This document shows positions 19,723 to 61,966 of a DNA stretch of 64,000 nt, in pieces (the first letter of the stretch is position 1; every line of letters begins with the position of its first letter). The stretch is from a virus (Duplodnaviria > Caudoviricetes), in IMG/VR virus record IMGVR_UViG_2630968332_000001, positions 1-64,000 of that record, one strand, 5' to 3'. Under the pieces are notes generated by a model. It saw only the letters and a program-made list of their open reading frames with translations, ran no database searches and had not been told where the DNA came from. A program made the translations under genes and the position numbers.

Positions 19723-20328
19723 ATGAAAGCAAATGAAGTAATGAAATTATTGCAAATTAGTCGTTCCACTTTATTAAGGTGGCGAAAAGATGGAATTTTA
19801 AAAGCTACTAAATTGCCTTCTGGGCAATATGATTGGGACGCTAATTCTGTTTTTAAAATATTAAATAAAGGTGAAGTTCGTGGTGTTTATTTATATGCTA
19901 GAGTGTCTACACCTAAACAAAAACAAGACCTTGAAAACCAAATTGAAAACCTGCAAAGTTTTGCGATGAAAAATGGTTATCAAGTTAAAGGTCTATACAA
20001 AGATATAGCTAGTGGAATTTCTTTTGAAAAAAGAAAGGAGTTTTTTGAATTATTAGATCTTGTAATTAGTGGTAAAGTATTAAAGATTATTATCACCTAC
20101 AAGGATAGATTAAGTCGTGTTGGTTTCGATCTGTTTAAATACTTATTTTCCAAGTATCATACCGAGATAATTGTGATGTCAGAATTAACCGATAAAAAGA
20201 CAGACCAACAAGAAATATTTGAAGAAATCATTAGCTTGTTGCACGCATTTTCAATGAGAATGTACTCGAGTAGAAGAAAGAAAATTAAAGAAGCTTTGGA
20301 AGATAAGGAGGTGAATAAGGATGGTTAA
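19723..20328 (+). CDS. tnpA: IS607 serine recombinase transposase
   Basis: MerR-like HTH, YARVST, DIASG, YKDRLSRVGF. Confidence 0.95.
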   Translation: MKANEVMKLLQISRSTLLRWRKDGILKATKLPSGQYDWDANSVFKILNKGEVRGVYLYARVSTPKQKQDLENQIENLQSFAMKNGYQVKGLYKDIASGISFEKRKEFFELLDLVISGKVLKIIITYKDRLSRVGFDLFKYLFSKYHTEIIVMSELTDKKTDQQEIFEEIISLLHAFSMRMYSSRRKKIKEALEDKEVNKDG

Positions 20329-21664
20329 ACAGCAAAAATCAAAGAAGAAAGTCATAAAAACTTTTAAAGAAGTAAGAGCAGAGAAAACGGAAGTTCAATA
20401 TGAGTATTTGGTGGAAAAGCATATTATTAAATCTAATGATGCACGTTATGCTATTTTAGATAAATACGCTCATCTATCCAATAATGTCTACAACCAAGCT
20501 CTATATCGTTTTAGACAGGCTTTCTTTAAGGGTAAGTGGCTGAGTTACGAAAAACTAGACAAATCATTTAAACAATCTTTTAATCAAAAGGACTGTATGC
20601 TGTATCGTTCTATGAAAAGTGTACATTTAGCTCAACAAATTTTAAAGTTAGTCAATCAAAATATGACTTCTTGGAATAAAGCTCGTAAAGCATATTTAAA
20701 GGCACCGCAAAAGTTCACTGGCAAGCCTAAAATACCCAAATATAAACCCAAAGGCGGTAAAAATATTGTTATCGTAGATAACCAAACTGCTAAATTAAGA
20801 GCTAATGGAATTGTAGAAATACCAGTGATGGATAGCTTGAAAATTAAGTTACAACACAAAAAAACTAATAAAATTCAACAAGTTAGAATAATCCCTAGAA
20901 ATAATACTTTTGTAATTGAAATAGTTTATAAAACTAATAAGGTTATTGACTACAAAGAAGATAATGGACGCTATTTAACGATTGACCCAGGACTTGATAA
21001 TGCCTTTACGTTGGCATCTAATGTTAAAGGATTCAAACCTGTCATTATTAATGGACGTCCTTTAAAGTCAGTCAATCAATACTATAACAAGCAAAAAGCT
21101 AGATTAACTAGAATTTATGACTTGTCAAAACAAAATCGTAATACTAAGCGTTTAAATAAACTTGATTTTTATCGTAATCAAAAAATGTTAAAATTCGCTC
21201 ATGAAGCAAGTAAACGCATTGTTGAGATAGCGTTAAGCCATGAGTTAAACACGATTGTTATTGGTAAAAATAAAGGGCAAAAACGTTCTAGTAATATGGG
21301 AAAACGAATAAACCAAAACTTTATTGGTATTCCACATCAAAAAATGCTTGAGATGATTGAATATAAAGCTAATTTAGCAGAGATAGTTGTAATTCAAGCT
21401 AACGAAGCTTATACAAGTCAAACTTCATTTTTAGATAATGAAATACCAATTAAACAAAATGGCGATAAAGCTCGTAAACGTAAAGGGTTAAGTCCTGTCA
21501 AAAGACGCGTTAAACGTGGTTTATTTAAATCAAATAAAGGTATCTTAATTAACGCTGATGTTAATGGAGCGTTACAGATATTAAGAAAAGTAGTACCGAA
21601 TGCTTTTGCTGACGGTATAGATGGAATCGGATTAGTTCCAGTTAAGCTAAACTTAAATTTCTAA
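20321..21664 (+). CDS. tnpB: TnpB RNA-guided nuclease (IS607 type, rearranged RuvC-II)
   Basis: IDPGLDN, IVIGKN with alternative Glu in NEAYTS, NADVNGA; no zinc-finger Cys. Confidence 0.93.
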   Translation: MVKQQKSKKKVIKTFKEVRAEKTEVQYEYLVEKHIIKSNDARYAILDKYAHLSNNVYNQALYRFRQAFFKGKWLSYEKLDKSFKQSFNQKDCMLYRSMKSVHLAQQILKLVNQNMTSWNKARKAYLKAPQKFTGKPKIPKYKPKGGKNIVIVDNQTAKLRANGIVEIPVMDSLKIKLQHKKTNKIQQVRIIPRNNTFVIEIVYKTNKVIDYKEDNGRYLTIDPGLDNAFTLASNVKGFKPVIINGRPLKSVNQYYNKQKARLTRIYDLSKQNRNTKRLNKLDFYRNQKMLKFAHEASKRIVEIALSHELNTIVIGKNKGQKRSSNMGKRINQNFIGIPHQKMLEMIEYKANLAEIVVIQANEAYTSQTSFLDNEIPIKQNGDKARKRKGLSPVKRRVKRGLFKSNKGILINADVNGALQILRKVVPNAFADGIDGIGLVPVKLNLNF

Positions 21665-22328: not shown

Positions 22329-22381
22329 AAGATAAAAACAAAATAACAATAAAGATTAAGAATTAAAGGGTGGTAATTATT

Positions 22382-23398
22382 ATGGAAATTAGAGATGTAT
22401 ACACAAGTTGGTTAGAAAGCAAATCAGAAAATACAAGAACAAAATATCAAGCAAAGGTAGATAACTTTTCTGAAATGGTCTTTGGTAAAGAGGCTTGGGA
22501 ACTAACAGAAGAAGATTTGGTTAACTTAACATATCATGATGTTTATGGTAAATATATCAAAACATTCTTAACAGGTAGCAAGAAAGCTAAAGAAACTACG
22601 ATTGTTAACTACTTACGTTCTATTAAGTCATATTTTGGTGCTATCAGACGTGCAGATATTTATCCTAACGTTAACTTCGACCATCTGGTTAATGATGTTT
22701 TATATACAAAAGATTTATCTGCTAAAGATGGTGGACATAACGAACAAATTTCCAAATCAGAAGTTAAGGAAATGGAAAGTTGGTTGATTGATAACAAGCC
22801 AAATGGATATAAATATGCTACATTGATTGATTTCATGTTTCATACAGCAGTTCGTGTTTCAGCTGCATTCACTATTCGTTGGAGTGACTTTACAGTTTAT
22901 GAAAGTCCTTATGGTGGTACATTTGCTAAATTAAAAGTAATTGATAAGGGACGTAAATTAAACGATAAGGATATTCCAGTAAAACACTTTAACAACTTAA
23001 AGGAAACTATGGGTTATGATGGACATGATAACGAGTTAGTGTTTAAGGGTATGAAACAAACAACCTTGCGTAATTATATGAGGGAATTTAGCGACCTTCG
23101 TGGACGTAACTGGACACCACATTCATTAAAGGTTGGTGCTGCTACTACATTTTATAGCATTACTAAAGATATTGTTGCTACATCAAGACTACTAGACCAT
23201 GAAAGTTTAGATACAACAATGACTTATATTAGGAACAATCCTAACCCAAATGATAGTGGTACAACAATTTTGTATAGTTCAGATACACACGTTGATTTTA
23301 GTAAATTAAAGAAGGAACAATTATTGATGTTGATTAATAATAGACCAGAAGTTGCTGATATGTTATCACGTGACGCAGCTCGCATGGGGGTTAATTGA
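22382..23398 (+). CDS. Tyrosine recombinase family protein
   Basis: TAVRVS, KGRK, HSLK (R to K), LDHES, TMTY. Confidence 0.88.
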   Translation: MEIRDVYTSWLESKSENTRTKYQAKVDNFSEMVFGKEAWELTEEDLVNLTYHDVYGKYIKTFLTGSKKAKETTIVNYLRSIKSYFGAIRRADIYPNVNFDHLVNDVLYTKDLSAKDGGHNEQISKSEVKEMESWLIDNKPNGYKYATLIDFMFHTAVRVSAAFTIRWSDFTVYESPYGGTFAKLKVIDKGRKLNDKDIPVKHFNNLKETMGYDGHDNELVFKGMKQTTLRNYMREFSDLRGRNWTPHSLKVGAATTFYSITKDIVATSRLLDHESLDTTMTYIRNNPNPNDSGTTILYSSDTHVDFSKLKKEQLLMLINNRPEVADMLSRDAARMGVN

Positions 23399-41667: not shown

Positions 41668-41730
41668 TTGACTTTTATTTTTTATATGGTATTATAATAT
41701 ATGTAAGTTAAGAGTTAAGAGAATAAACGA
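41668..41730 (+). promoter_or_regulatory. Promoter of RNA locus with AGAGAATAAA leader motif
   Basis: TTGACT...TATAAT then gttaagagttaagagaataaa. Confidence 0.75.
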
Positions 41731-41813
41731 ATAACTCAAAGCTACAACAAAACAATTAAATAAATCTGTTAAATATGTTGAACTTAATGTAATTGTCCTT
41801 ACGTGAGTCAACA

Positions 41814-43238: not shown

Positions 43239-43395
43239 GGGGTAGAGCATGACTACCCCGAAAGCACAATAACGGTAAGTGCATAGATTTGTGTAATTTT
43301 TTGACATTGAATCTGAATTAATTCATGAACAGGTTCATTACGACTTACGGATTGGTTCATGATTTAAGATTTCCTCCTTTTGAATTAGAAGGTTC

Positions 43396-43453
43396 GCAAC
43401 GTAGCTCAACTGGTAGAGCAAAGGATGATGTGGGTTCGAGTCCCACCGTTGCA
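43396..43453 (+). ncRNA. Anticodon-arm-less tRNA-like element
   Basis: gcaacg/cgttgc acceptor, TAGCTCAACTGGTAGAGC D-arm, gtggg-TTCGAGT-cccac T-arm, only a ~10-nt linker. Confidence 0.8.
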
Positions 43454-43500
43454 ATTAGCCAATATGGCTATAAATATACAATAGAAAAGAGGTGAGATAG

Positions 43501-44757
43501 ATGAAGACAATGAGTGAGTTAAAATACCACTATGGCTTGAAGATGTGTATTCACCCTAGCACGAAGCAAAAGCAAATCATTAAGATGAACAGTGATGTAT
43601 CTAGGGCTGTATATAACGCTATGGTTGCGATTGATAAAGAGTTGTATCAACTCAAACAGGTAAAACTACCTATTGATACAATCCAAACACGTATTGCTGA
43701 ATTAGAAAAACGTAAGAAGGCTCAAAACTATTTAGCAACGCACTATACTTACATGAAACACCCTTATATTGATAGTCATTGTCGTTCTATGGCAATGCGT
43801 TCTTATAAAGCTGCATGGAATATGTTTAGAAAAGTTCATAACGTTGGTACACCTAATTTTCATAAGAAAACTTACGAGGAGAAGTATCAAACAAGTGGAA
43901 CTTATACGAGTAAGAAGAAACCAGTTAATATGTGGACTGGCTCAATTAGATTTGTAGACAATAAACATATTAATATTCCTAAGCTGGGTATTATTCGTGT
44001 GAGTGGTTCGTATAGAAAACTACTAGATAATAAAGATGATATTAGAATTGGCACAACTACTATTTCTAAAAATGCTTTTGGTATCTACTACGTTTCTATG
44101 CAGTTGGGTTCAGATACACCTTTTGTTAAAGAATTGCCTAAAACTAATTCTCAAGTTGGAATCGACTTGAATACAGATAACTTCTTAACAACAAGCGAAG
44201 GTAATGTTATAGCTAACCCGAGATTTTATAGAACTATCAAGGGTCGATTGGCTAAAGCACAACGTAAATTATCACGCAGACAAGTTAGAGCCAAGAAAGA
44301 AGGACGCTCCTTACGTGATAGCAAGAATTACCAAAAGCAACGCATAGTGGTATCAAAACTTATGAATAAAGTGCGTAATCAACGTAATAAATTCTTAGAT
44401 GAAATGTCAATAACACTTATCAAGAACCACGATTTGGTTGTGGCTGAAAATCTAAGAAGTAAAAATATGTTGAGAAATCACGCTTTGGCTATGTCTATTA
44501 GTGATGTAGGTTGGAGAACATTCCTACAAAAACTAGAATACAAAGCTGAATTATATGGTAAGACTTTTGTTACTGTAAATCCTAAGAATACTACACAAAC
44601 ATGTAGCGAATGTGGGCATGTTATGGGAACAAAAGATACGGATAAGCTAACACTAAAAGATAGAAGTTGGGCTTGTCCTAGCTGTAATACTTACCATATA
44701 CGTGATGTAAATGCAGCAAAGAATATCCTAGACAAAGGATTAAAACAATTAGCCTAG
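43501..44757 (+). CDS. tnpB: TnpB (IS200/IS605 type), CRISPR-adjacent, no tnpA
   Basis: GIDLN, VAENL, CSECG...CPSC, RDVNAAKNI: RuvC D-E-D and zinc finger intact. Confidence 0.93.
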   Translation: MKTMSELKYHYGLKMCIHPSTKQKQIIKMNSDVSRAVYNAMVAIDKELYQLKQVKLPIDTIQTRIAELEKRKKAQNYLATHYTYMKHPYIDSHCRSMAMRSYKAAWNMFRKVHNVGTPNFHKKTYEEKYQTSGTYTSKKKPVNMWTGSIRFVDNKHINIPKLGIIRVSGSYRKLLDNKDDIRIGTTTISKNAFGIYYVSMQLGSDTPFVKELPKTNSQVGIDLNTDNFLTTSEGNVIANPRFYRTIKGRLAKAQRKLSRRQVRAKKEGRSLRDSKNYQKQRIVVSKLMNKVRNQRNKFLDEMSITLIKNHDLVVAENLRSKNMLRNHALAMSISDVGWRTFLQKLEYKAELYGKTFVTVNPKNTTQTCSECGHVMGTKDTDKLTLKDRSWACPSCNTYHIRDVNAAKNILDKGLKQLA

Positions 44758-44759
44758 AA

Positions 44760-44938
44760 ATAGGTAGTCCGTTTGTCTGTTGCGGACTCAAAAGCATTTG
44801 GTAATTACCATGTAAGACCTTTATTTCAGATTTTTCTGATACAAAGGCAACGGTGTATCTAATGAAATTTTGGCAACCCTAAAAAATTAGGAGTTCCCAA
44901 AACCCTAGTACTGTGGGATTTGTTAGTCTGTTTTTAGT
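44760..44938 (+). ncRNA. omegaRNA/tracrRNA-like scaffold
   Basis: Structured region between tnpB stop and array; hairpin loop GTCTGT complementary to repeat end ACAGAC. Confidence 0.65.
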
Positions 44939-45155
44939 GTGTTACCCATATGTGCGTGGGGACAGACTGGAATACGTACAAACGATATACTCAAACTCAA
45001 GGTGTTACCCACATACGTGTGGGGCAGACTACGGCAAGTTTTTTAAAGACAATGAAGAATATGTGTTACCCATATGTGCGTGGGGACAGACTATATGTAG
45101 TTAAGAGTTTAGCGAACAAACGAAAGTGCTACTCATATGTGTCAAAGAACATATA
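44939..45155 (+). CRISPR. Mini CRISPR array: 3 repeats plus a degenerate 4th, 3 spacers
   Basis: GTGTTACCCATATGTGCGTGGGGACAGACT at 44939 and 45063, variant at 45002, degenerate at 45126; spacers 33, 32, 33 nt. Confidence 0.9.
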
Positions 45156-45165
45156 GCTATATTTA

Positions 45166-45207
45166 CTCACCTCGGTAGTTCTGTTCTGGTTCAACTCCAG
45201 AAGTGAG
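45166..45207 (+). ncRNA. tRNA-like mini-element closing the array
   Basis: ctcac/gtgag stem, tctgg-TTCAACT-ccaga T-arm. Confidence 0.6.
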
Positions 45208-45209
45208 CT

Positions 45210-45612
45210 TTGTACCAACTCCTGATACACCTCTAATCAAGGCAAGACCGTTATGCGTCTTTTAATGTAGGACAGGTGCGGTACGGCATCTCATTAGTAC
45301 GTTACTCGAGGGTACGGAAGGTGTTTTGCAAGGGATATACTATGCCAAGTGTGGAGGTTGATTACCTCGCAGCAGATAGCTACTGTTGTCATACGTGCGA
45401 GCTTGGTGTGTGTAGTTAGATGTGCCGATTATTTAGTAAGTTATCTCAAAGTGGCGAGATGACTTTTTCGCTGGGGATAAGCCCAATCGTTTAGATATAT
45501 CCACCAGTTGCTTTAGCCAGTTATCCTCTCGTAGCAGTGGAGTTCTTTCGCCGAACTTGCTAGGGAACAGATTGTTGAGGCGAATGCAATTTAATGTTCG
45601 ATAACTGGTTAT
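45210..45612 (+). ncRNA. Putative ~400-nt structured RNA
   Basis: GC-enriched, hairpin-rich, no credible ORF, bracketed by a tRNA-like element and tRNA-Ser. Confidence 0.55.
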
Positions 45613-45616
45613 ATTT

Positions 45617-45706
45617 GGTAAGTTACTCAAGTTGGTGAAGAGGACTGTTTGCTAAACAGTTAGGTCTGCGATTGTGGACGCAAGGGTTCGAGTCCCTTAC
45701 TTACCG
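45617..45706 (+). tRNA. tRNA-Ser(GCT)
   Basis: actgt-TTGCTAA-acagt, long variable arm, GGTTCGAGTCC, G discriminator, no encoded CCA. Confidence 0.9.
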
Positions 45707-45726
45707 TTAACAATTAAATATTAAAA

Positions 45727-46001
45727 TTCGTGTGTATATAGGAACAAATCTGATTGTATTTATAATTTTGGTTTGTACAAACAAAAATCTTATAATATTT
45801 ATAATTATCTTATTGTTTTAGAACAAATTGCGACACCTCCTTTACTAAACCGCCCGCTTTTTGTCCTAACATGCAATTTTTAAAATAAAAGCCTGTGAGT
45901 GAAAGTAGCTACTGTTTTAAGCAAGTGCCCCGCTACTTAAATTTTTAAAAGTGAAATTTTAGCAAAACTAAAGCCAGATTTGTTCCTACATGCACACGAA
46001 T
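45727..46001 (+). ncRNA. Long stem-closed RNA with anti-SD segment
   Basis: ~27-bp inverted repeat at the ends; internal CACCTCCTTT. Confidence 0.5.
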
Positions 46002-48699: not shown

Positions 48700-49257
48700 A
48701 TGGTTTACAATTCTAAACCACTTAGAACACAAGCCCAGATAGATGATGTGTTATTCTATTTAAGACGAACTCGTTATCCAGAACGTGATACATTCTTATT
48801 TTTGATTGGAATTAACACTGGGTTAAGATGTTCTGACATAGTGAAACTCAAAATAGGTACTTTAAGACATTCCAAGCGACCAGAAATCACAGAGAAGAAA
48901 ACTGGTAAAAAGAGAACGTTATTCCTAGACAATGTGCAAGATATTGTGCGTGATTATATCGAAGGCAAAGATGATAGTGAGTGGGCATTCCCATCTAGCT
49001 ATGATAAGAGCAAACATATAACGGTGCAGAATGTATATAAACTATTCAAACGAATTGATAATGAATTAGGTGGAATAGGTTTTACCACACACTCTATGAG
49101 AAGGACGTTCGGTTTGTGGTATTATCGTAAGACTAAAAACATATATTACTTGATGGAGTTGTTCAATCATTCCAGTCAAACCATCACCATGAGATATATC
49201 GGTCTTACGGAAGATGAGTTAGGGGACTCTTTAGAAGGGTTCAGAATAGGGTATTAA
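48700..49257 (+). CDS. Small tyrosine recombinase (catalytic domain only)
   Basis: TGLRCSD, EKKTGK, HSMRRTF, FNHSS, TMRYIG. Confidence 0.92.
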   Translation: MVYNSKPLRTQAQIDDVLFYLRRTRYPERDTFLFLIGINTGLRCSDIVKLKIGTLRHSKRPEITEKKTGKKRTLFLDNVQDIVRDYIEGKDDSEWAFPSSYDKSKHITVQNVYKLFKRIDNELGGIGFTTHSMRRTFGLWYYRKTKNIYYLMELFNHSSQTITMRYIGLTEDELGDSLEGFRIGY

Positions 49258-54671: not shown

Positions 54672-54890
54672 GGTTTAGCACCTCCAAAGTATTGTTAAAA
54701 ATTCTCGGCACGAATTAACGGTATGTGCCTAAGCCCCACCACGCTCTCAAAAACGTGTGATAGCTCAAATCTGCTAATGTAAGGCGATTGACGTGACTAA
54801 TAAAGTACAATCCATTCATACCTTATTTTATATTGGTAGATTTATCTACCTATGACCTATTAACCTTTTACAATTAATAGACCCAGTGCA

Positions 54891-55403: not shown

Positions 55404-55787
55404 ATAATCACCTCCGTTTATTCTCTAGGCTTTTAATTACATTTATTATAATATCACACAAAAACAAAAAGTCAATACATATTCACAAAAAAATGAACAT
55501 GTTTTGACTTTCTTCTAATTATTTAATTAATCATCATCTTCAAACAACCATTCTTGTTCTTCTTCTTGAATTGAACGTAGGTAGCTTGTATCATCAAAAT
55601 CTACAAAGTTATCTATGCAACCATCTTCCTTATTTTGTAATGTTATGGTATACTAAAAACATTAGAGGGAATAAATTACCGCCCTTTAATTCTTAATTTT
55701 TGTTTTTTGTTAAAAATTCTTTTAAAGAACAGAAGGTTTACCCGACTTTCTGTTTTTTTTATTTGCCATAATTTCTTATTTTTTGTA

Positions 55788-60408: not shown

Positions 60409-61966
60409 CTGCTATATAAAATGTGGAATAATGTAGAACAATATTTATTAGTTCTACATTATTAGAAAGAAATATAGTTTTTCCTTTCCTAGATTTTATT
60501 TACTACCGTCAACAACAGTATTCCCATATCCTAATAAAAGGGTAATGACATTGACTGTCTCTGATAACCTAAGGGTGTAGCCCACCCCGTTGTATTTTTA
60601 TGCTACTAAATTCAATAAATTCATAACCGCATTTTCATCTCTATCCATAATCGAACCACATTCATAACAAATATATTCGTTATGTTTTGTTCCATGCTTA
60701 CGATTACCATTAAGACCAACTTTATCTTCGCCAGTCTTGATATATCCACATTCAGAACATCTTTGTGTGCTTGGATAATATTGGTCTGCTAAGACTATTT
60801 CCTTGCCATACCAGCCAGCTTTATAAACCAATACTTGTCTAAAAGTTCCAAATAATGACCTTTGTAAACCTTTAGAAGCAACGTGTGTCATCTGCATTTT
60901 CTTCACATCTAAATCTTCGATTACGATTTTGTCGTAATCACTTACTAATTTAGTTGTAAATTTATGAATAATATCATGTTGGATATTAGCCACTTTACGA
61001 TAATCACGTTGCAACTTGGCTCTCGTTTTAACGTAATTATTCGACTTAGTTGCTTTCTTTCCATTAACAACACGTTTTCTAGCTAACTGACGTTGGTAAT
61101 GTTTGATACGTTTATAGAGTTTCTTTAGATGATTAGGCAATGTATTAACTTTACCTTCGGTATAGTTAAAATGACCGACATTAATATCTACAGCTGTTTT
61201 CTTACCAGTTTTAGTTTTCTTGGTTATTTCAACTTCAAAAGGTAAACTAGCCCAATATTTACCGTTTTCACGATAAATTGATACAACTTTTAAATCACCA
61301 TCTAAACTCTTAGCGCCTTTAAAACTAATACCATACCAAGTTTTAACCCCACGAGGTTTATCAAGTCTTAACTTGCCATTAATAATCTTGGCTCTGTCAG
61401 TTTTAAAACCTTGTCTAGTAGCTTTCTTAGATTTAAATTTAGGTTTACCCCAGTCTGGCATAGCTTTATTAAAAAAGTTGCTCCATGCTTTACCTAAATC
61501 AGAAATCGCTAACTGTAAGCAACGAGGTGATAATTGATACTGCCAATCCTCTTTATTAGCTACTAACTCATCACGCACCTTGCGTTCGCTAGGTTTTAAC
61601 TTTTTATCATCTAAAATCAACGAACTATCATACATATCATTCCATAAAGCTAAGCCTTGATTCCAACAATATCTACGATAATCACATAAATCATCAAGAA
61701 CTTTCTTCATGGTTTTATTTGGATAAAGTCTTACCTTTTGCGTTCTAATCATATATATCACCACCTTGCTTCACAAAATTGATATAATAAATTTATCTTC
61801 TATATTATACTAACTTTAGAGAAGTAAGTCAAGATATATTCATGAAAAAATGAAGATGTTTTATGTTTTTGAATTCATTGTTTTTAAGCCTATTTCACAT
61901 TTTTACTCTTTCTAGTAGGCTCGTTGTTCTATATAGTTCTACATAATTCTATATTTTTGTTAACAG
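60409..61966 (-). mobile_element. Non-autonomous tnpB-only element with imperfect inverted ends
   Basis: 31-nt ends ctgctatataaaatgtggaataatgtagaac vs ctgttaacaaaaatatagaattatgtagaac (24/31 by hand count). Confidence 0.75.
60598..61752 (-). CDS. tnpB: TnpB RNA-guided nuclease
   Basis: AVDIN, VIEDL, CSECG...CYECG, DRDENA. Confidence 0.93.
   Translation of the reverse strand: MIRTQKVRLYPNKTMKKVLDDLCDYRRYCWNQGLALWNDMYDSSLILDDKKLKPSERKVRDELVANKEDWQYQLSPRCLQLAISDLGKAWSNFFNKAMPDWGKPKFKSKKATRQGFKTDRAKIINGKLRLDKPRGVKTWYGISFKGAKSLDGDLKVVSIYRENGKYWASLPFEVEITKKTKTGKKTAVDINVGHFNYTEGKVNTLPNHLKKLYKRIKHYQRQLARKRVVNGKKATKSNNYVKTRAKLQRDYRKVANIQHDIIHKFTTKLVSDYDKIVIEDLDVKKMQMTHVASKGLQRSLFGTFRQVLVYKAGWYGKEIVLADQYYPSTQRCSECGYIKTGEDKVGLNGNRKHGTKHNEYICYECGSIMDRDENAVMNLLNLVA

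What the first reader, a model, noticed from the sequence alone, without database searches (positions are those of the whole stretch)
43396..45155. Transposase-free TnpB coupled to its own CRISPR mini-array: candidate nascent type V system
Seen: the 418-aa TnpB keeps RuvC D/E/D and the zinc finger but has no tnpA or recognisable left end. It is preceded by a tRNA-like element, hairpin and RBS, like other genes of this element. About 180 nt after its stop an array starts (29-30-nt repeats, 32-33-nt spacers). The first scaffold hairpin (agtccgt-TTGTCTGTT-gcggact, 44766-44788) exposes GTCTGT, complementary to the repeat end ACAGAC (GCAGAC in repeat 2, kept by G:U). A second segment, AGTCTGTTTTTA (44925-44936), can pair 12 nt with the repeat end TGGGGACAGACT. 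Established: TnpB omegaRNAs and Cas12f tracr:crRNAs form a pseudoknot between a 5' segment and the bases just before the guide, and Cas12 lineages arose repeatedly from TnpB. Inference: the repeat has replaced the transposon right end, so the scaffold acts as tracrRNA for several spacers. No cas1/cas2 is present in the window.
Basis: partly seen in the sequence, partly recalled or inferred. Interest (0 to 1): 0.95.

Follow-up and report, generated by a model that had tools for sequence, protein, structure and literature searches.

The report
TnpB nuclease wired to CRISPR mini-array
A transposon-type RNA-guided DNA cutter (TnpB) on a large Ligilactobacillus salivarius plasmid or phage-plasmid has lost its transposon ends and is followed by a small CRISPR array that its guide-RNA scaffold appears built to read; it is a clear new example of the already described step from transposon to CRISPR-Cas12.

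Summary
The 418-aa TnpB (43501-44757) keeps the RuvC triad and the zinc finger. It has no left end, no tnpA and no cas1/cas2 on the 129-kb element. 181 nt after its stop lies an array of three 29-30-nt repeats, three 32-33-nt spacers and a degenerate last repeat.

- All 5 relatives of 92-98% identity carry TnpB, scaffold and array. No spacer is shared, and the module sits in two unrelated contexts.
- Relatives of 47-74% identity are ordinary IS605 elements with a right end and a variable flank.
- The loop of the first scaffold hairpin, which pairs with the RNA tail before the guide in ordinary relatives, is rewritten here to pair with the repeat tail.
- TnpB is under strong purifying selection, and the scaffold is more conserved than synonymous sites.

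My reading changed on one point. The repeat looks more like a type I-E repeat than a copied right end, and its geometry and one protospacer flank (AAT) fit the I-E system of L. salivarius, so host I-E Cas1-Cas2 may write the spacers.

The kind is known (TranC, type V-U, Cas12r, CauTranC9), and this scan noted like loci on other DNA before. No activity was tested.

The parts
41668..41698 (+). Promoter-like site (TTGACT, 16 nt, TATTAT, overlapping TATAAT). It is the nearest strong + strand promoter upstream of the locus.
   Evidence: 10 of 12 matches, TG before the second hexamer; sequence. On the + strand between it and the array, the scan found only one terminator-like site, inside tnpB.
41699..41732 (+). 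The element's own copy of the site matched by spacer 3. A 1-nt insertion after base 7 breaks the match.
43395..43454 (+). tRNA-like element that stands where a left end would be.
   Evidence: Rfam tRNA 46.1 bits; not called by ARAGORN.
43456..43500 (+). Small hairpin (43456-70), A-rich leader and ribosome-binding site before tnpB.
   Evidence: Sequence; the same layout occurs in L003, L005 and L018.
43501..44757 (+). tnpB, 418 aa, with intact RuvC D222/E316/D402 and a CCCC zinc finger.
   Evidence: dN/dS 0.04-0.09.
44758..44938 (+). omegaRNA-derived scaffold (candidate tracr-like RNA).
   Evidence: nhmmer with a profile of 20 canonical scaffolds gives one hit in the genome, 44780-44873, E 4.3e-4. 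The fold has the same architecture as canonical relatives. Identity between loci is 94-97.5%.
44766..44788 (+). First scaffold hairpin. Its loop GTCTGT(T) (44775-81) is complementary to the repeat tail.
44902..44918 (+). Degenerate repeat-like quasi-palindrome at the scaffold end ('repeat 0'), a possible anti-repeat. In L005 it keeps the full tail and is followed directly by a 32-nt spacer.
   Evidence: The duplex statistics are weak: 3 to 59 of 200 shuffles do as well.
44925..44936 (+). Second GTCTG segment. It pairs over 12 nt with the repeat end here, but only 6 pairs are conserved elsewhere.
44939..44968 (+). Repeat 1 (30 nt).
44969..45001 (+). Spacer 1 (33 nt). It reads GIRTNDILKLK, which resembles the Arg-box of the element's own tyrosine recombinase at 48820 (7 of 11 aa, 19 of 33 nt).
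   Evidence: No target was found.
45002..45030 (+). Repeat 2 (29 nt, perfect 6-bp stem, tail GCAGACT).
45031..45062 (+). Spacer 2 (32 nt), no target found.
45063..45092 (+). Repeat 3 (identical to repeat 1).
45093..45125 (+). Spacer 3 (33 nt). It matches 29 of 33 nt, the first 17 perfectly, in three sister elements, directly after TATAAT.
45126..45155 (+). Degenerate terminal repeat, shared with L004.

Best explanation
This is an immobilised TnpB of IS605 descent that works as a small type V-like (TranC-like) CRISPR effector for a large L. salivarius plasmid or phage-plasmid.

Proposed mechanism (all steps inferred):
- The gene, its 181-nt scaffold and the array are probably transcribed together from the promoter at 41668.
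- The scaffold supplies most of the former omegaRNA.
- Each repeat supplies the missing 3' part, namely the last hairpin plus the tail (G)ACAGACT.
- The tail pairs with the loop GTCTGT of the first scaffold hairpin and so forms the pseudoknot just before the guide.
- TnpB is thereby loaded with the first 16-20 nt of a spacer and cuts matching DNA next to a TAM that ends in AAT.
- Targets are rival mobile elements. Spacer 3 fits three sister elements but not the element itself.
- New spacers are most likely written in trans by a host type I-E Cas1-Cas2, because the repeat body, the 29/32 geometry and the AAT flank are I-E-like.

Shown here: the anatomy, the co-inheritance, the covariation and the sequence constraint.
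Inferred: RNA loading, cleavage, the TAM and the writer.
For: 1. Co-inheritance. All 5 relatives of 92-98% identity (L003, L004, L005, L017, L018) have the scaffold followed by repeats. L017 shows only one repeat before its contig ends. I count 17 spacers, none shared between loci.
2. Two contexts. Window and L005/L018 are alike only over 43482-44919/44941, from the ribosome-binding site to the scaffold end.
3. Ordinary relatives. Of 79 lower-identity loci, 57 end in a hairpin plus ..GTTGAC followed by a variable flank, with 21 distinct scaffolds. They have a divergent tnpA and a left end after TTTAAT in 10 of 11. In a scan of 87 loci, periodic repeats outside the array clade were one microsatellite (L007), one rearrangement (L063) and one true I-E array (L058).
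4. Pseudoknot covariation at one homologous place. The pairs are CAACC:GGTTG in 21 loci, CAACT:AGTTG in 3, and GTCTGT:ACAGAC in 5 of 6 array loci. In L018 the register is shifted. In ISDra2, nucleotides -5 to -3 pair with -103 to -105 (passages of PMC10097598).
5. Constraint. dN/dS is 0.04-0.09 at dS 0.3-0.6, and the scaffold is 94-97.5% identical. In the repeat hairpin 91.7% of cells are paired and 3 of 6 pairs change on both sides.
6. Quick tree. The 6 array loci plus 7 proteins of unknown context form one clade (SH-aLRT 100) beside Ligilactobacillus TnpBs.
7. No rival reader on record. The host strain's only reported CRISPR-Cas has 36-bp repeats (passages of PMC4165912). The repeat pattern is absent from 185,579 species genomes apart from one single match.
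8. I-E likeness. Against the repeat of a true I-E locus (L058; CasE, Cas5, Cas7), 17-22 letters are identical and 0-16 of 5000 shuffles do as well. L. salivarius I-E has 29-bp repeats, 32-bp spacers and PAM AAT/AAY (passages of PMC11288051). The spacer 3 target follows TATAAT.
9. Contigs of RNA libraries (X16, X17, X20) run from tnpB or the scaffold into repeats with other spacers. This is weak evidence, because DNA can be present in such libraries.
Against: - There are no RNA ends, no binding data and no cleavage data. The RNA-library contigs do not prove transcription.
- Trans-assembly would rest on a 6-7-bp pseudoknot plus protein contacts. I found no strong conserved anti-repeat.
- Only 1 of 17 spacers has a target, and that match has 4 mismatches.
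- The flank TATAAT differs from the ancestral TTTAAT at one base and is also simply a -10 box.
- In L018 the loop has one change that weakens the pairing.
- The repeat resembles a class 1 (I-E) repeat, so a Cascade reader in I-E-positive hosts is not excluded.
- I could not see the L. salivarius I-E repeat itself.
- The context of the 80-85% identical proteins (P0005-P0008) is unknown, so the age and origin of the array are open.
Confidence: 0.7

Rival explanations
1. The array is a mobile-element-borne type I-E mini-array read by a host Cascade in I-E-positive L. salivarius strains. TnpB merely sits next to it, or uses at most the first guide.
For: - The repeat is significantly like true I-E repeats.
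- The 29-30/32-33 geometry and the AAT flank equal those reported for L. salivarius I-E.
- The element has no adaptation genes.
- A canonical relative (L058) has in fact inserted beside an I-E array.
Against: - The 3' tail of the repeat, which becomes the crRNA handle in I-E systems (recalled), differs from that of the one Lactobacillaceae-type I-E repeat I hold. It matches the rewritten TnpB loop instead.
- The array travels with tnpB and the scaffold in two unrelated contexts.
- The host strain has no I-E system on record.
- Only 18 I-E systems were counted in L. salivarius, against 109 II-A and 62 III-A.
- The repeat pattern is absent from species-representative genomes. Most L. salivarius strains lack I-E, so the representative genome may lack it too, which makes this point weak.
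Confidence: 0.15
2. The locus is a decaying, immobilised IS remnant whose right end was duplicated or rearranged. The array has no function.
For: - There is no left end and no tnpA.
- The arrays are short (2 to 6 repeats).
- Degenerate repeats occur at the ends of the arrays and throughout L018.
Against: - dN/dS is 0.04-0.09 and the scaffold is conserved above synonymous sites.
- The catalytic residues are intact.
- Spacers have uniform length and are completely replaced between loci.
- The repeat stem shows compensatory changes.
Confidence: 0.05
3. TnpB with spacer 3 acts on promoters of the element's own family: it controls or polices the homologous promoter-leader motif rather than defending against unrelated invaders.
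For: - Spacer 3 lies on the transcript start behind a -10 box.
- The motif recurs at weaker similarity at other promoters of the element (24 of 33 at 55412 and 66945; further weak matches in sister elements).
Against: - The nuclease triad is intact, unlike the nuclease-dead TnpB-like repressors named in a review passage (PMC13565253).
- The element's own site is broken by an insertion after base 7.
- The other 16 spacers show no such relation.
Confidence: 0.05

Closest known systems
TranC, transposon-CRISPR intermediates (Jin et al., Cell 2025;188:6283). The paper is not held; I know it from passages of PMC13565253, 10.1101/2025.09.28.678669 and 10.64898/2026.03.27.714800. LaTranC structures: PDB 9jfo, 9jfq.
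   Same: - A TnpB-derived effector of TnpB size, with a CRISPR array downstream and no adaptation genes.
- The guide RNA is thought to be split into a scaffold (tracr-like) part and a repeat-spacer part.
- Such systems arose repeatedly from IS605 or IS607 TnpB.
   Different: - The protein is much closer to ISDra2 TnpB (E 1e-35 over the full length) than to LaTranC (E 5e-23, C-terminal part only).
- Repeats are 29-30 nt, against 32-38 nt reported for TranC clades 3, 9, 11 and 20.
- The repeat is I-E-like and carries its own full hairpin.
- I could not check whether this clade is among the published TranC clades, because the paper and its supplements were not visible.
Type V-U6 to V-U45 candidate systems (Altae-Tran et al., PNAS 2023, PMC10691335; passages).
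   Same: - TnpB branches conserved with a downstream array and no cas1/2/4.
- The paper names both routes: serial duplication of omegaRNA segments, or insertion near an existing array.
   Different: Membership of a numbered V-U group could not be checked, because it is defined in the supplementary appendix, which is closed. NCBIfam names the protein TnpB, and its Cas12 models fall below their cut-offs.
Cas12r-CRISPR of Thermus Lalka phages (Trofimova et al., bioRxiv 10.64898/2026.04.20.719267; abstract, passages).
   Same: - A TnpB-like nuclease on a mobile element, followed by degenerate 29-bp repeats and 31-33-nt spacers.
- No adaptation genes, and a host type I-E writer is proposed.
- Its spacers aim at rival integrative elements with similar integrases. 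Here, spacer 1 resembles a recombinase motif.
   Different: - Cas12r is 564 aa, sits 15 bp from its array and needs only a crRNA.
- This protein is 418 aa and keeps a conserved 181-nt omegaRNA-derived scaffold.
- The hosts and the PAM differ (ARG there, AAT-type here).
- No sequence comparison was made.
CauTranC9, a TnpB-sized TranC found in a Caudoviricetes genome (bioRxiv 10.64898/2026.03.27.714800; passages).
   Same: A nuclease of ancestral TnpB size without added domains, carried by a phage with a short array, and read as superinfection exclusion.
   Different: It has 38-bp repeats and a compact PAM.
ISDra2 TnpB and its omegaRNA (PDB 8bf8, 8h1j; PMC10097598).
   Same: The same domains and catalytic residues, and a pseudoknot between a 5' segment and the bases just before the guide.
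   Different: ISDra2 is a transposon with ends, a tnpA and one guide fixed by its flank. This locus has no ends and several spacers.

Membership tests
TnpB (IS200/IS605-family RNA-guided nuclease, OMEGA) | RuvC D/E/D triad and CCCC zinc finger in a protein of about 400 aa | tested here: met
   D222, E316, D402 and four Cys align to ISDra2 D191, E278, D361 and C331/334/351/354. Pfam hits. NCBIfam guided_TnpB 296 bits against a cut-off of 100.
TnpB (IS200/IS605-family RNA-guided nuclease, OMEGA) | Lies inside an insertion sequence with a left end and a right end, with or without tnpA | tested here: not met
   The left-end profile gives no hit in 129 kb. There is no Y1 tnpA in G000, G001 or G002. 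The right-end tail ..GTTGAC is replaced by repeats. The NCBIfam IS200_TnpB model scores 273.6 bits, below its cut-off of 425.
TnpB (IS200/IS605-family RNA-guided nuclease, OMEGA) | An omegaRNA scaffold downstream of the gene that ends at a single guide | tested here: inconclusive
   The scaffold is homologous (nhmmer E 4.3e-4) and has the same fold plan. Its 3' end is degenerate and is followed by an array. L005 still has a scaffold end followed directly by a spacer.
TranC / type V-U (TnpB-derived CRISPR effector) | A TnpB-like gene conserved next to a CRISPR array across relatives | tested here: met
   6 of 6 loci of 92-100% identity, in two contexts.
TranC / type V-U (TnpB-derived CRISPR effector) | The guide RNA is functionally split into a tracr-like RNA and a crRNA, and array spacers guide DNA cleavage | not testable with these tools
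   Only indirect evidence: pseudoknot complementarity and covariation and scaffold constraint.
TranC / type V-U (TnpB-derived CRISPR effector) | Falls in a published TranC clade or a numbered V-U group | not tested
   Jin et al. is not held and supplements are closed. Compared only with LaTranC, which is the weaker match.
Named Cas12 subtypes (Cas12f, C2c8 and others) | Score above the curated family cut-off | tested here: not met
   V_cas_c2c8 scores 112 bits against 350, and Cas12f2 scores 47 against 450. The PADLOC Cas12u4 and Cas12f models do match (E 8e-49 and 5e-45), but they have no cut-offs and also fit TnpBs.
Type I-E CRISPR array | 29-nt repeat, 32-nt spacer, palindromic repeat of the I-E kind | tested here: met
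   Repeats are 29-30 nt and spacers 32-33 nt. Against the L058 I-E repeat, 17-22 letters are identical and 0-16 of 5000 shuffles do as well. Against the E. coli K-12 repeat, 16-19 are identical and 4-88 of 2000 shuffles do as well.
Type I-E CRISPR array | Associated cas genes (Cascade, cas3, cas1, cas2) in the element or the host | tested here: not met
   No Cas1 or Cas2 in 4 of 4 elements. The host strain's only reported system has 36-bp repeats. Cascade genes on the element were not searched.
Type I-E CRISPR array | Same repeat, 3' handle included, as the host species' I-E arrays | not tested
   The L. salivarius I-E repeat is shown only in a figure of PMC11288051, and no genome of that species could be reached.

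The most novel reading that the evidence does not exclude
The repeat is a hybrid that serves two machines of different CRISPR classes. Its I-E-type body and its PAM-derived last base let a host class 1 Cas1-Cas2 write AAT-flanked spacers into the element's array. Its 3' tail has co-evolved with the rewritten pseudoknot loop of a class 2 ancestor (TnpB), which is the only reader. Capture was possible because the ancestral TAM (TTTAAT) already contained the host I-E PAM (AAT). If so, this locus shows in living relatives how a transposon nuclease acquires a memory: it plugs its omegaRNA into a borrowed array, rather than duplicating its own right end.
Probability: 0.3. Interest if true: 0.8.

Novelty: new member of a known kind. 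Interest (0 to 1): 0.6.

Why it matters
The step from TnpB to Cas12 is already described in general terms. This locus is unusually readable for three reasons.
- The array-bearing clade sits next to ordinary, still mobile IS605 relatives of the same host genus, so homologous RNA positions can be compared one by one.
- One relative (L005) keeps a scaffold end followed directly by a spacer. Another relative (L058) has landed beside a true I-E array.
- The element sits in a named, culturable, harmless L. salivarius strain.

Two open questions therefore become directly testable:
- How little RNA pairing is enough to couple a TnpB scaffold to a repeat?
- Who writes spacers for type V-like systems that lack cas1 and cas2?

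Tried and rejected
**Target searches that found nothing**
- Window array against the phage records: no match.
- Window array against the plasmid records: only the element's own record.
- The first 20 nt of spacers 1 and 2 in IMG/VR: 0 matches each.
- The 17-mer of spacer 3 in IMG/VR: 7 places. Two are sister elements, and the other 5 do not extend beyond the 17-mer (19-23 of 33 identical).
- The L003, L005 and L004 arrays against plasmids: only repeats of the window's own record, or nothing.
- The L003 and L005 arrays against the four sister genomes: no protospacer.

**Other dead ends**
- Rfam has no family for the scaffold or the repeats, even at E <= 1.
- The HK97-type capsid Pfam model has no hit in the 4 elements. 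Only a TerL-like ORF supports a phage nature, so I write 'plasmid or phage-plasmid'.
- The careful tree did not finish within its time limit; I used the quick tree.
- I looked for an anti-repeat. The best duplexes involve the degenerate 'repeat 0' or the first hairpin, but 3 to 59 of 200 shuffled repeats do as well, so I claim none.
- I first read the repeat as a duplicated omegaRNA 3' end. I now rate this below an I-E-type origin, because the repeat resembles canonical 3' ends no better than 110-718 of 2000 shuffles do.
- Sequencing runs: 14 DNA runs of 7 studies (faeces, chicken gut, pig gut and one coded organism) hold 40-50% of the sampled words. I did not lay them.
- In the 4 RNA-library runs that I laid, positions 44996-45300 have almost no cover. 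That says nothing either way.
- I could not reach any Ligilactobacillus genome to read its I-E repeat.
- I could not see the DNA around the 80-85% identical proteins P0005-P0008.
Full report
**What the window is.** The window is the first 64 kb of a 129,218-bp record (34% G+C). IMG/VR classes it as a virus with 100% CheckV completeness. A plasmid search returned the same 129,218-bp sequence as a circular plasmid of a pig isolate of Ligilactobacillus salivarius. The strain's genome paper describes repA and repB on it and calls it a putative chromid. It reports a single chromosomal CRISPR-Cas with 36-bp repeats and 26 spacers, and does not mention the array studied here (passages of PMC4165912). 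PHROG hits are to replication and nucleotide-metabolism genes. A TerL-like ORF lies at 120.9 kb. An HK97 capsid model has no hit. I therefore call the element a plasmid or phage-plasmid.

**The observation.**
- The 418-aa ORF carries the Pfam TnpB domains. NCBIfam names it a TnpB (guided_TnpB, 296 bits against a cut-off of 100), while its Cas12 models stay under their cut-offs.
- D222, E316, D402 and four cysteines align to the catalytic and zinc residues of ISDra2 TnpB.
- A tRNA-like element (Rfam 46.1 bits, not called by ARAGORN), a small hairpin and a ribosome-binding site precede the gene.
- 181 nt after the stop come three repeats of 29-30 nt, spacers of 33, 32 and 33 nt, and a degenerate fourth repeat.
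- The element has no tnpA, no Cas1, no Cas2 and nothing like the family's left end.

**Relatives decide the matter.** Protein-guided scans of viral and metagenome contigs gave five loci with 92-98% identical TnpB.
- All five have the same scaffold followed by repeats of the same family. L017 shows only the first repeat before its contig ends. The L004 array wraps around its contig ends.
- I count 17 spacers in the six loci, and none is shared.
- The window and L004 share the degenerate last repeat, and repeats decay away from tnpB. This is what an array that grows at the tnpB side looks like.
- The window, L003, L004 and L017 are syntenic. With L005 and L018 the window shares only 43482-44919/44941, from the ribosome-binding site to the end of the scaffold. 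The unit that is inherited is therefore tnpB plus scaffold plus array.
- In contrast, 57 of 79 loci with 47-63% identical TnpB end in a hairpin plus ..GTTGAC and then a different flank each (21 distinct scaffolds). Of the other 22 loci, 6 run off their contig, 2 are interrupted, and 14 belong to a more distant group whose end my pattern missed.
- The canonical loci have a divergent HUH tnpA and a left end that follows TTTAAT in 10 of 11 insertions.
- Three further canonical copies lie on viral contigs: L116 and L117 (74% identical to P0006) and L118 (63%). They lack a tnpA next to them but keep both ends.
- A scan of 87 loci for periodic repeats flagged, outside the array clade, only a microsatellite (L007), a rearrangement (L063) and one true type I-E array (L058).
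- In a quick maximum-likelihood tree the six array loci and seven database proteins of unknown context form one clade (SH-aLRT 100) beside Ligilactobacillus TnpBs.

**The RNA.**
- A profile of 20 canonical scaffolds hits the 129-kb genome once, at 44780-44873 (E 4.3e-4). The predicted folds share the same plan: a first hairpin, a long branched stem, a third stem and a terminal hairpin.
- In ISDra2 the bases -5 to -3 before the guide pair with -103 to -105 to form a pseudoknot (passages of PMC10097598).
- At the homologous places the canonical relatives have loop CAACC with tail GGTTG (21 loci) or loop CAACT with tail AGTTG (3 loci). The array clade has loop GTCTGT with repeat tail ACAGAC. Its stem is the same as in L116 and L117. 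Both strands changed together.
- Only 288 of 100,000 random loops pair as well.
- Exceptions: L018 has one loop change and a shifted register, L005 has one G:U pair, and repeat 2 of the window has one G:U pair.
- The terminal hairpin of the scaffold is weak here. Each repeat carries a good one: 91.7% of cells are paired and 3 of 6 pairs change on both sides, though only 4 of 500 shuffles reach the observed value and the rows are related.
- In L005 the scaffold end keeps the full tail and is followed directly by a 32-nt spacer. An RNA-library contig of run X20 has the same layout.

**Constraint.** Between loci, dN/dS of tnpB is 0.04-0.09 at dS 0.3-0.6. The 162 nt after the stop are 94-97.5% identical. 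Protein and scaffold are both kept by selection.

**Where the repeat comes from.**
- The repeat resembles canonical omegaRNA 3' ends no better than chance (110-718 of 2000 shuffles). It resembles the E. coli K-12 type I-E repeat better (16-19 identical; 4-88 of 2000 shuffles).
- By luck, L058 holds a canonical relative inserted beside a true I-E locus, with CasE, Cas5 and Cas7 by Pfam. Against that repeat ours has 17-22 identities, and 0-16 of 5000 shuffles do as well.
- The likeness lies in the 5' two-thirds and the stem. The 3' tail differs.
- L. salivarius type I-E systems are reported to have 29-bp repeats, 32-bp spacers and a validated 5'-AAT PAM (AAY at self-targets). They are the rarest type in the species: 18 systems, against 109 II-A and 62 III-A (passages of PMC11288051).
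- The last base of our repeats varies (T 9, C 2, A 1, G 1 of 13 distinct repeats) while AGAC before it hardly does. I recall that in E. coli I-E this base comes from the PAM; this is recalled, not tested.
- I therefore think an I-E-type integrase in some hosts writes the spacers. A preprint proposes the same for Cas12r of Thermus phages (passages).

**Targets.**
- Spacer 3 matches three sister elements (G001, G002, L017) at 29 of 33 positions, with the first 17 perfect. The match lies directly after the -10 box TATAAT of the promoter that probably drives this very operon.
- The element's own copy has one extra base after position 7, which breaks the match.
- TATAAT shares 5 of 6 letters, and the final AAT, with the ancestral TTTAAT.
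- Spacer 1 reads as a tyrosine-recombinase Arg-box like that of the element's own recombinase, but with only 19 of 33 nt identical.
- No other spacer has a match.
- This fits conflict between related elements, on thin evidence.

**What is known.**
- TnpB branches tied to arrays without adaptation genes were catalogued as V-U6 to V-U45, and both routes to an array were named (passages of PMC10691335).
- TranC systems with a split guide RNA were described in 2025 (Jin et al.; not held; cited).
- A TnpB-sized TranC on a phage and Cas12r followed.
- Three paper searches for this family in L. salivarius found nothing on it.
- This scan itself holds 103 notes in at least 55 genomes with the same key words, several of them on phage TnpBs with I-E-like arrays.
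- I therefore file the locus as a new member of a known kind. Its value is its clarity and its testability in a cultured strain.

**Limits.**
- No experiment and no raw reads were available. The RNA-library contigs cannot prove transcription.
- No Ligilactobacillus genome could be searched.
- Supplementary files that may list this clade were closed.

Noticed in passing
window 60509-61764 (- strand): A second TnpB (388 aa, 28% identical to the first) is followed directly by an Rfam 'Transposase-1 RNA' match (72.4 bits, 60509-60567). It looks like an ordinary omegaRNA-type arrangement without an array.
   Followed up: partly
window 20321-21664 (+): A third TnpB-like ORF (447 aa; PHROG 'transposase' family 506, E 6.5e-37) lies just before an integrase-like ORF at 22370-23398. 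I did not examine its downstream RNA.
   Followed up: no
L058 3745-6245: A canonical IS605 relative (59% identical TnpB) sits with its right end 21 nt from a true type I-E array, which is in opposite orientation and lies next to casE, cas5 and cas7. No cas1 or cas2 lies between them. This is a natural case of such a transposon landing beside a class 1 array.
   Followed up: partly
L003 4652-4720 versus window 45156-45740: In the sister element the last repeat runs straight into the 3' part of the tRNA-Ser gene. About 540 bp present in the window, including most of that tRNA, are missing there.
   Followed up: partly
window 54731-54785 (- strand): An Rfam salivarius-1 RNA match (56.3 bits, gathering score 50), an RNA motif of unknown function.
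   Followed up: no
window 43395-43454; L005 and L018 upstream of tnpB: tRNA-like elements followed by a hairpin and a ribosome-binding site stand before tnpB in both genomic contexts, but they are different elements.
   Followed up: partly
window 55412-55444 and genome 66945-66977 (- strand): Sequences 24 of 33 identical to spacer 3 follow TATAAT-like boxes at other promoters of the element. A shared promoter-leader motif seems to exist.
   Followed up: partly
L063 3697-3900: A relative whose tnpB 3' end and first scaffold hairpin are duplicated and rearranged, so it is a broken copy.
   Followed up: no
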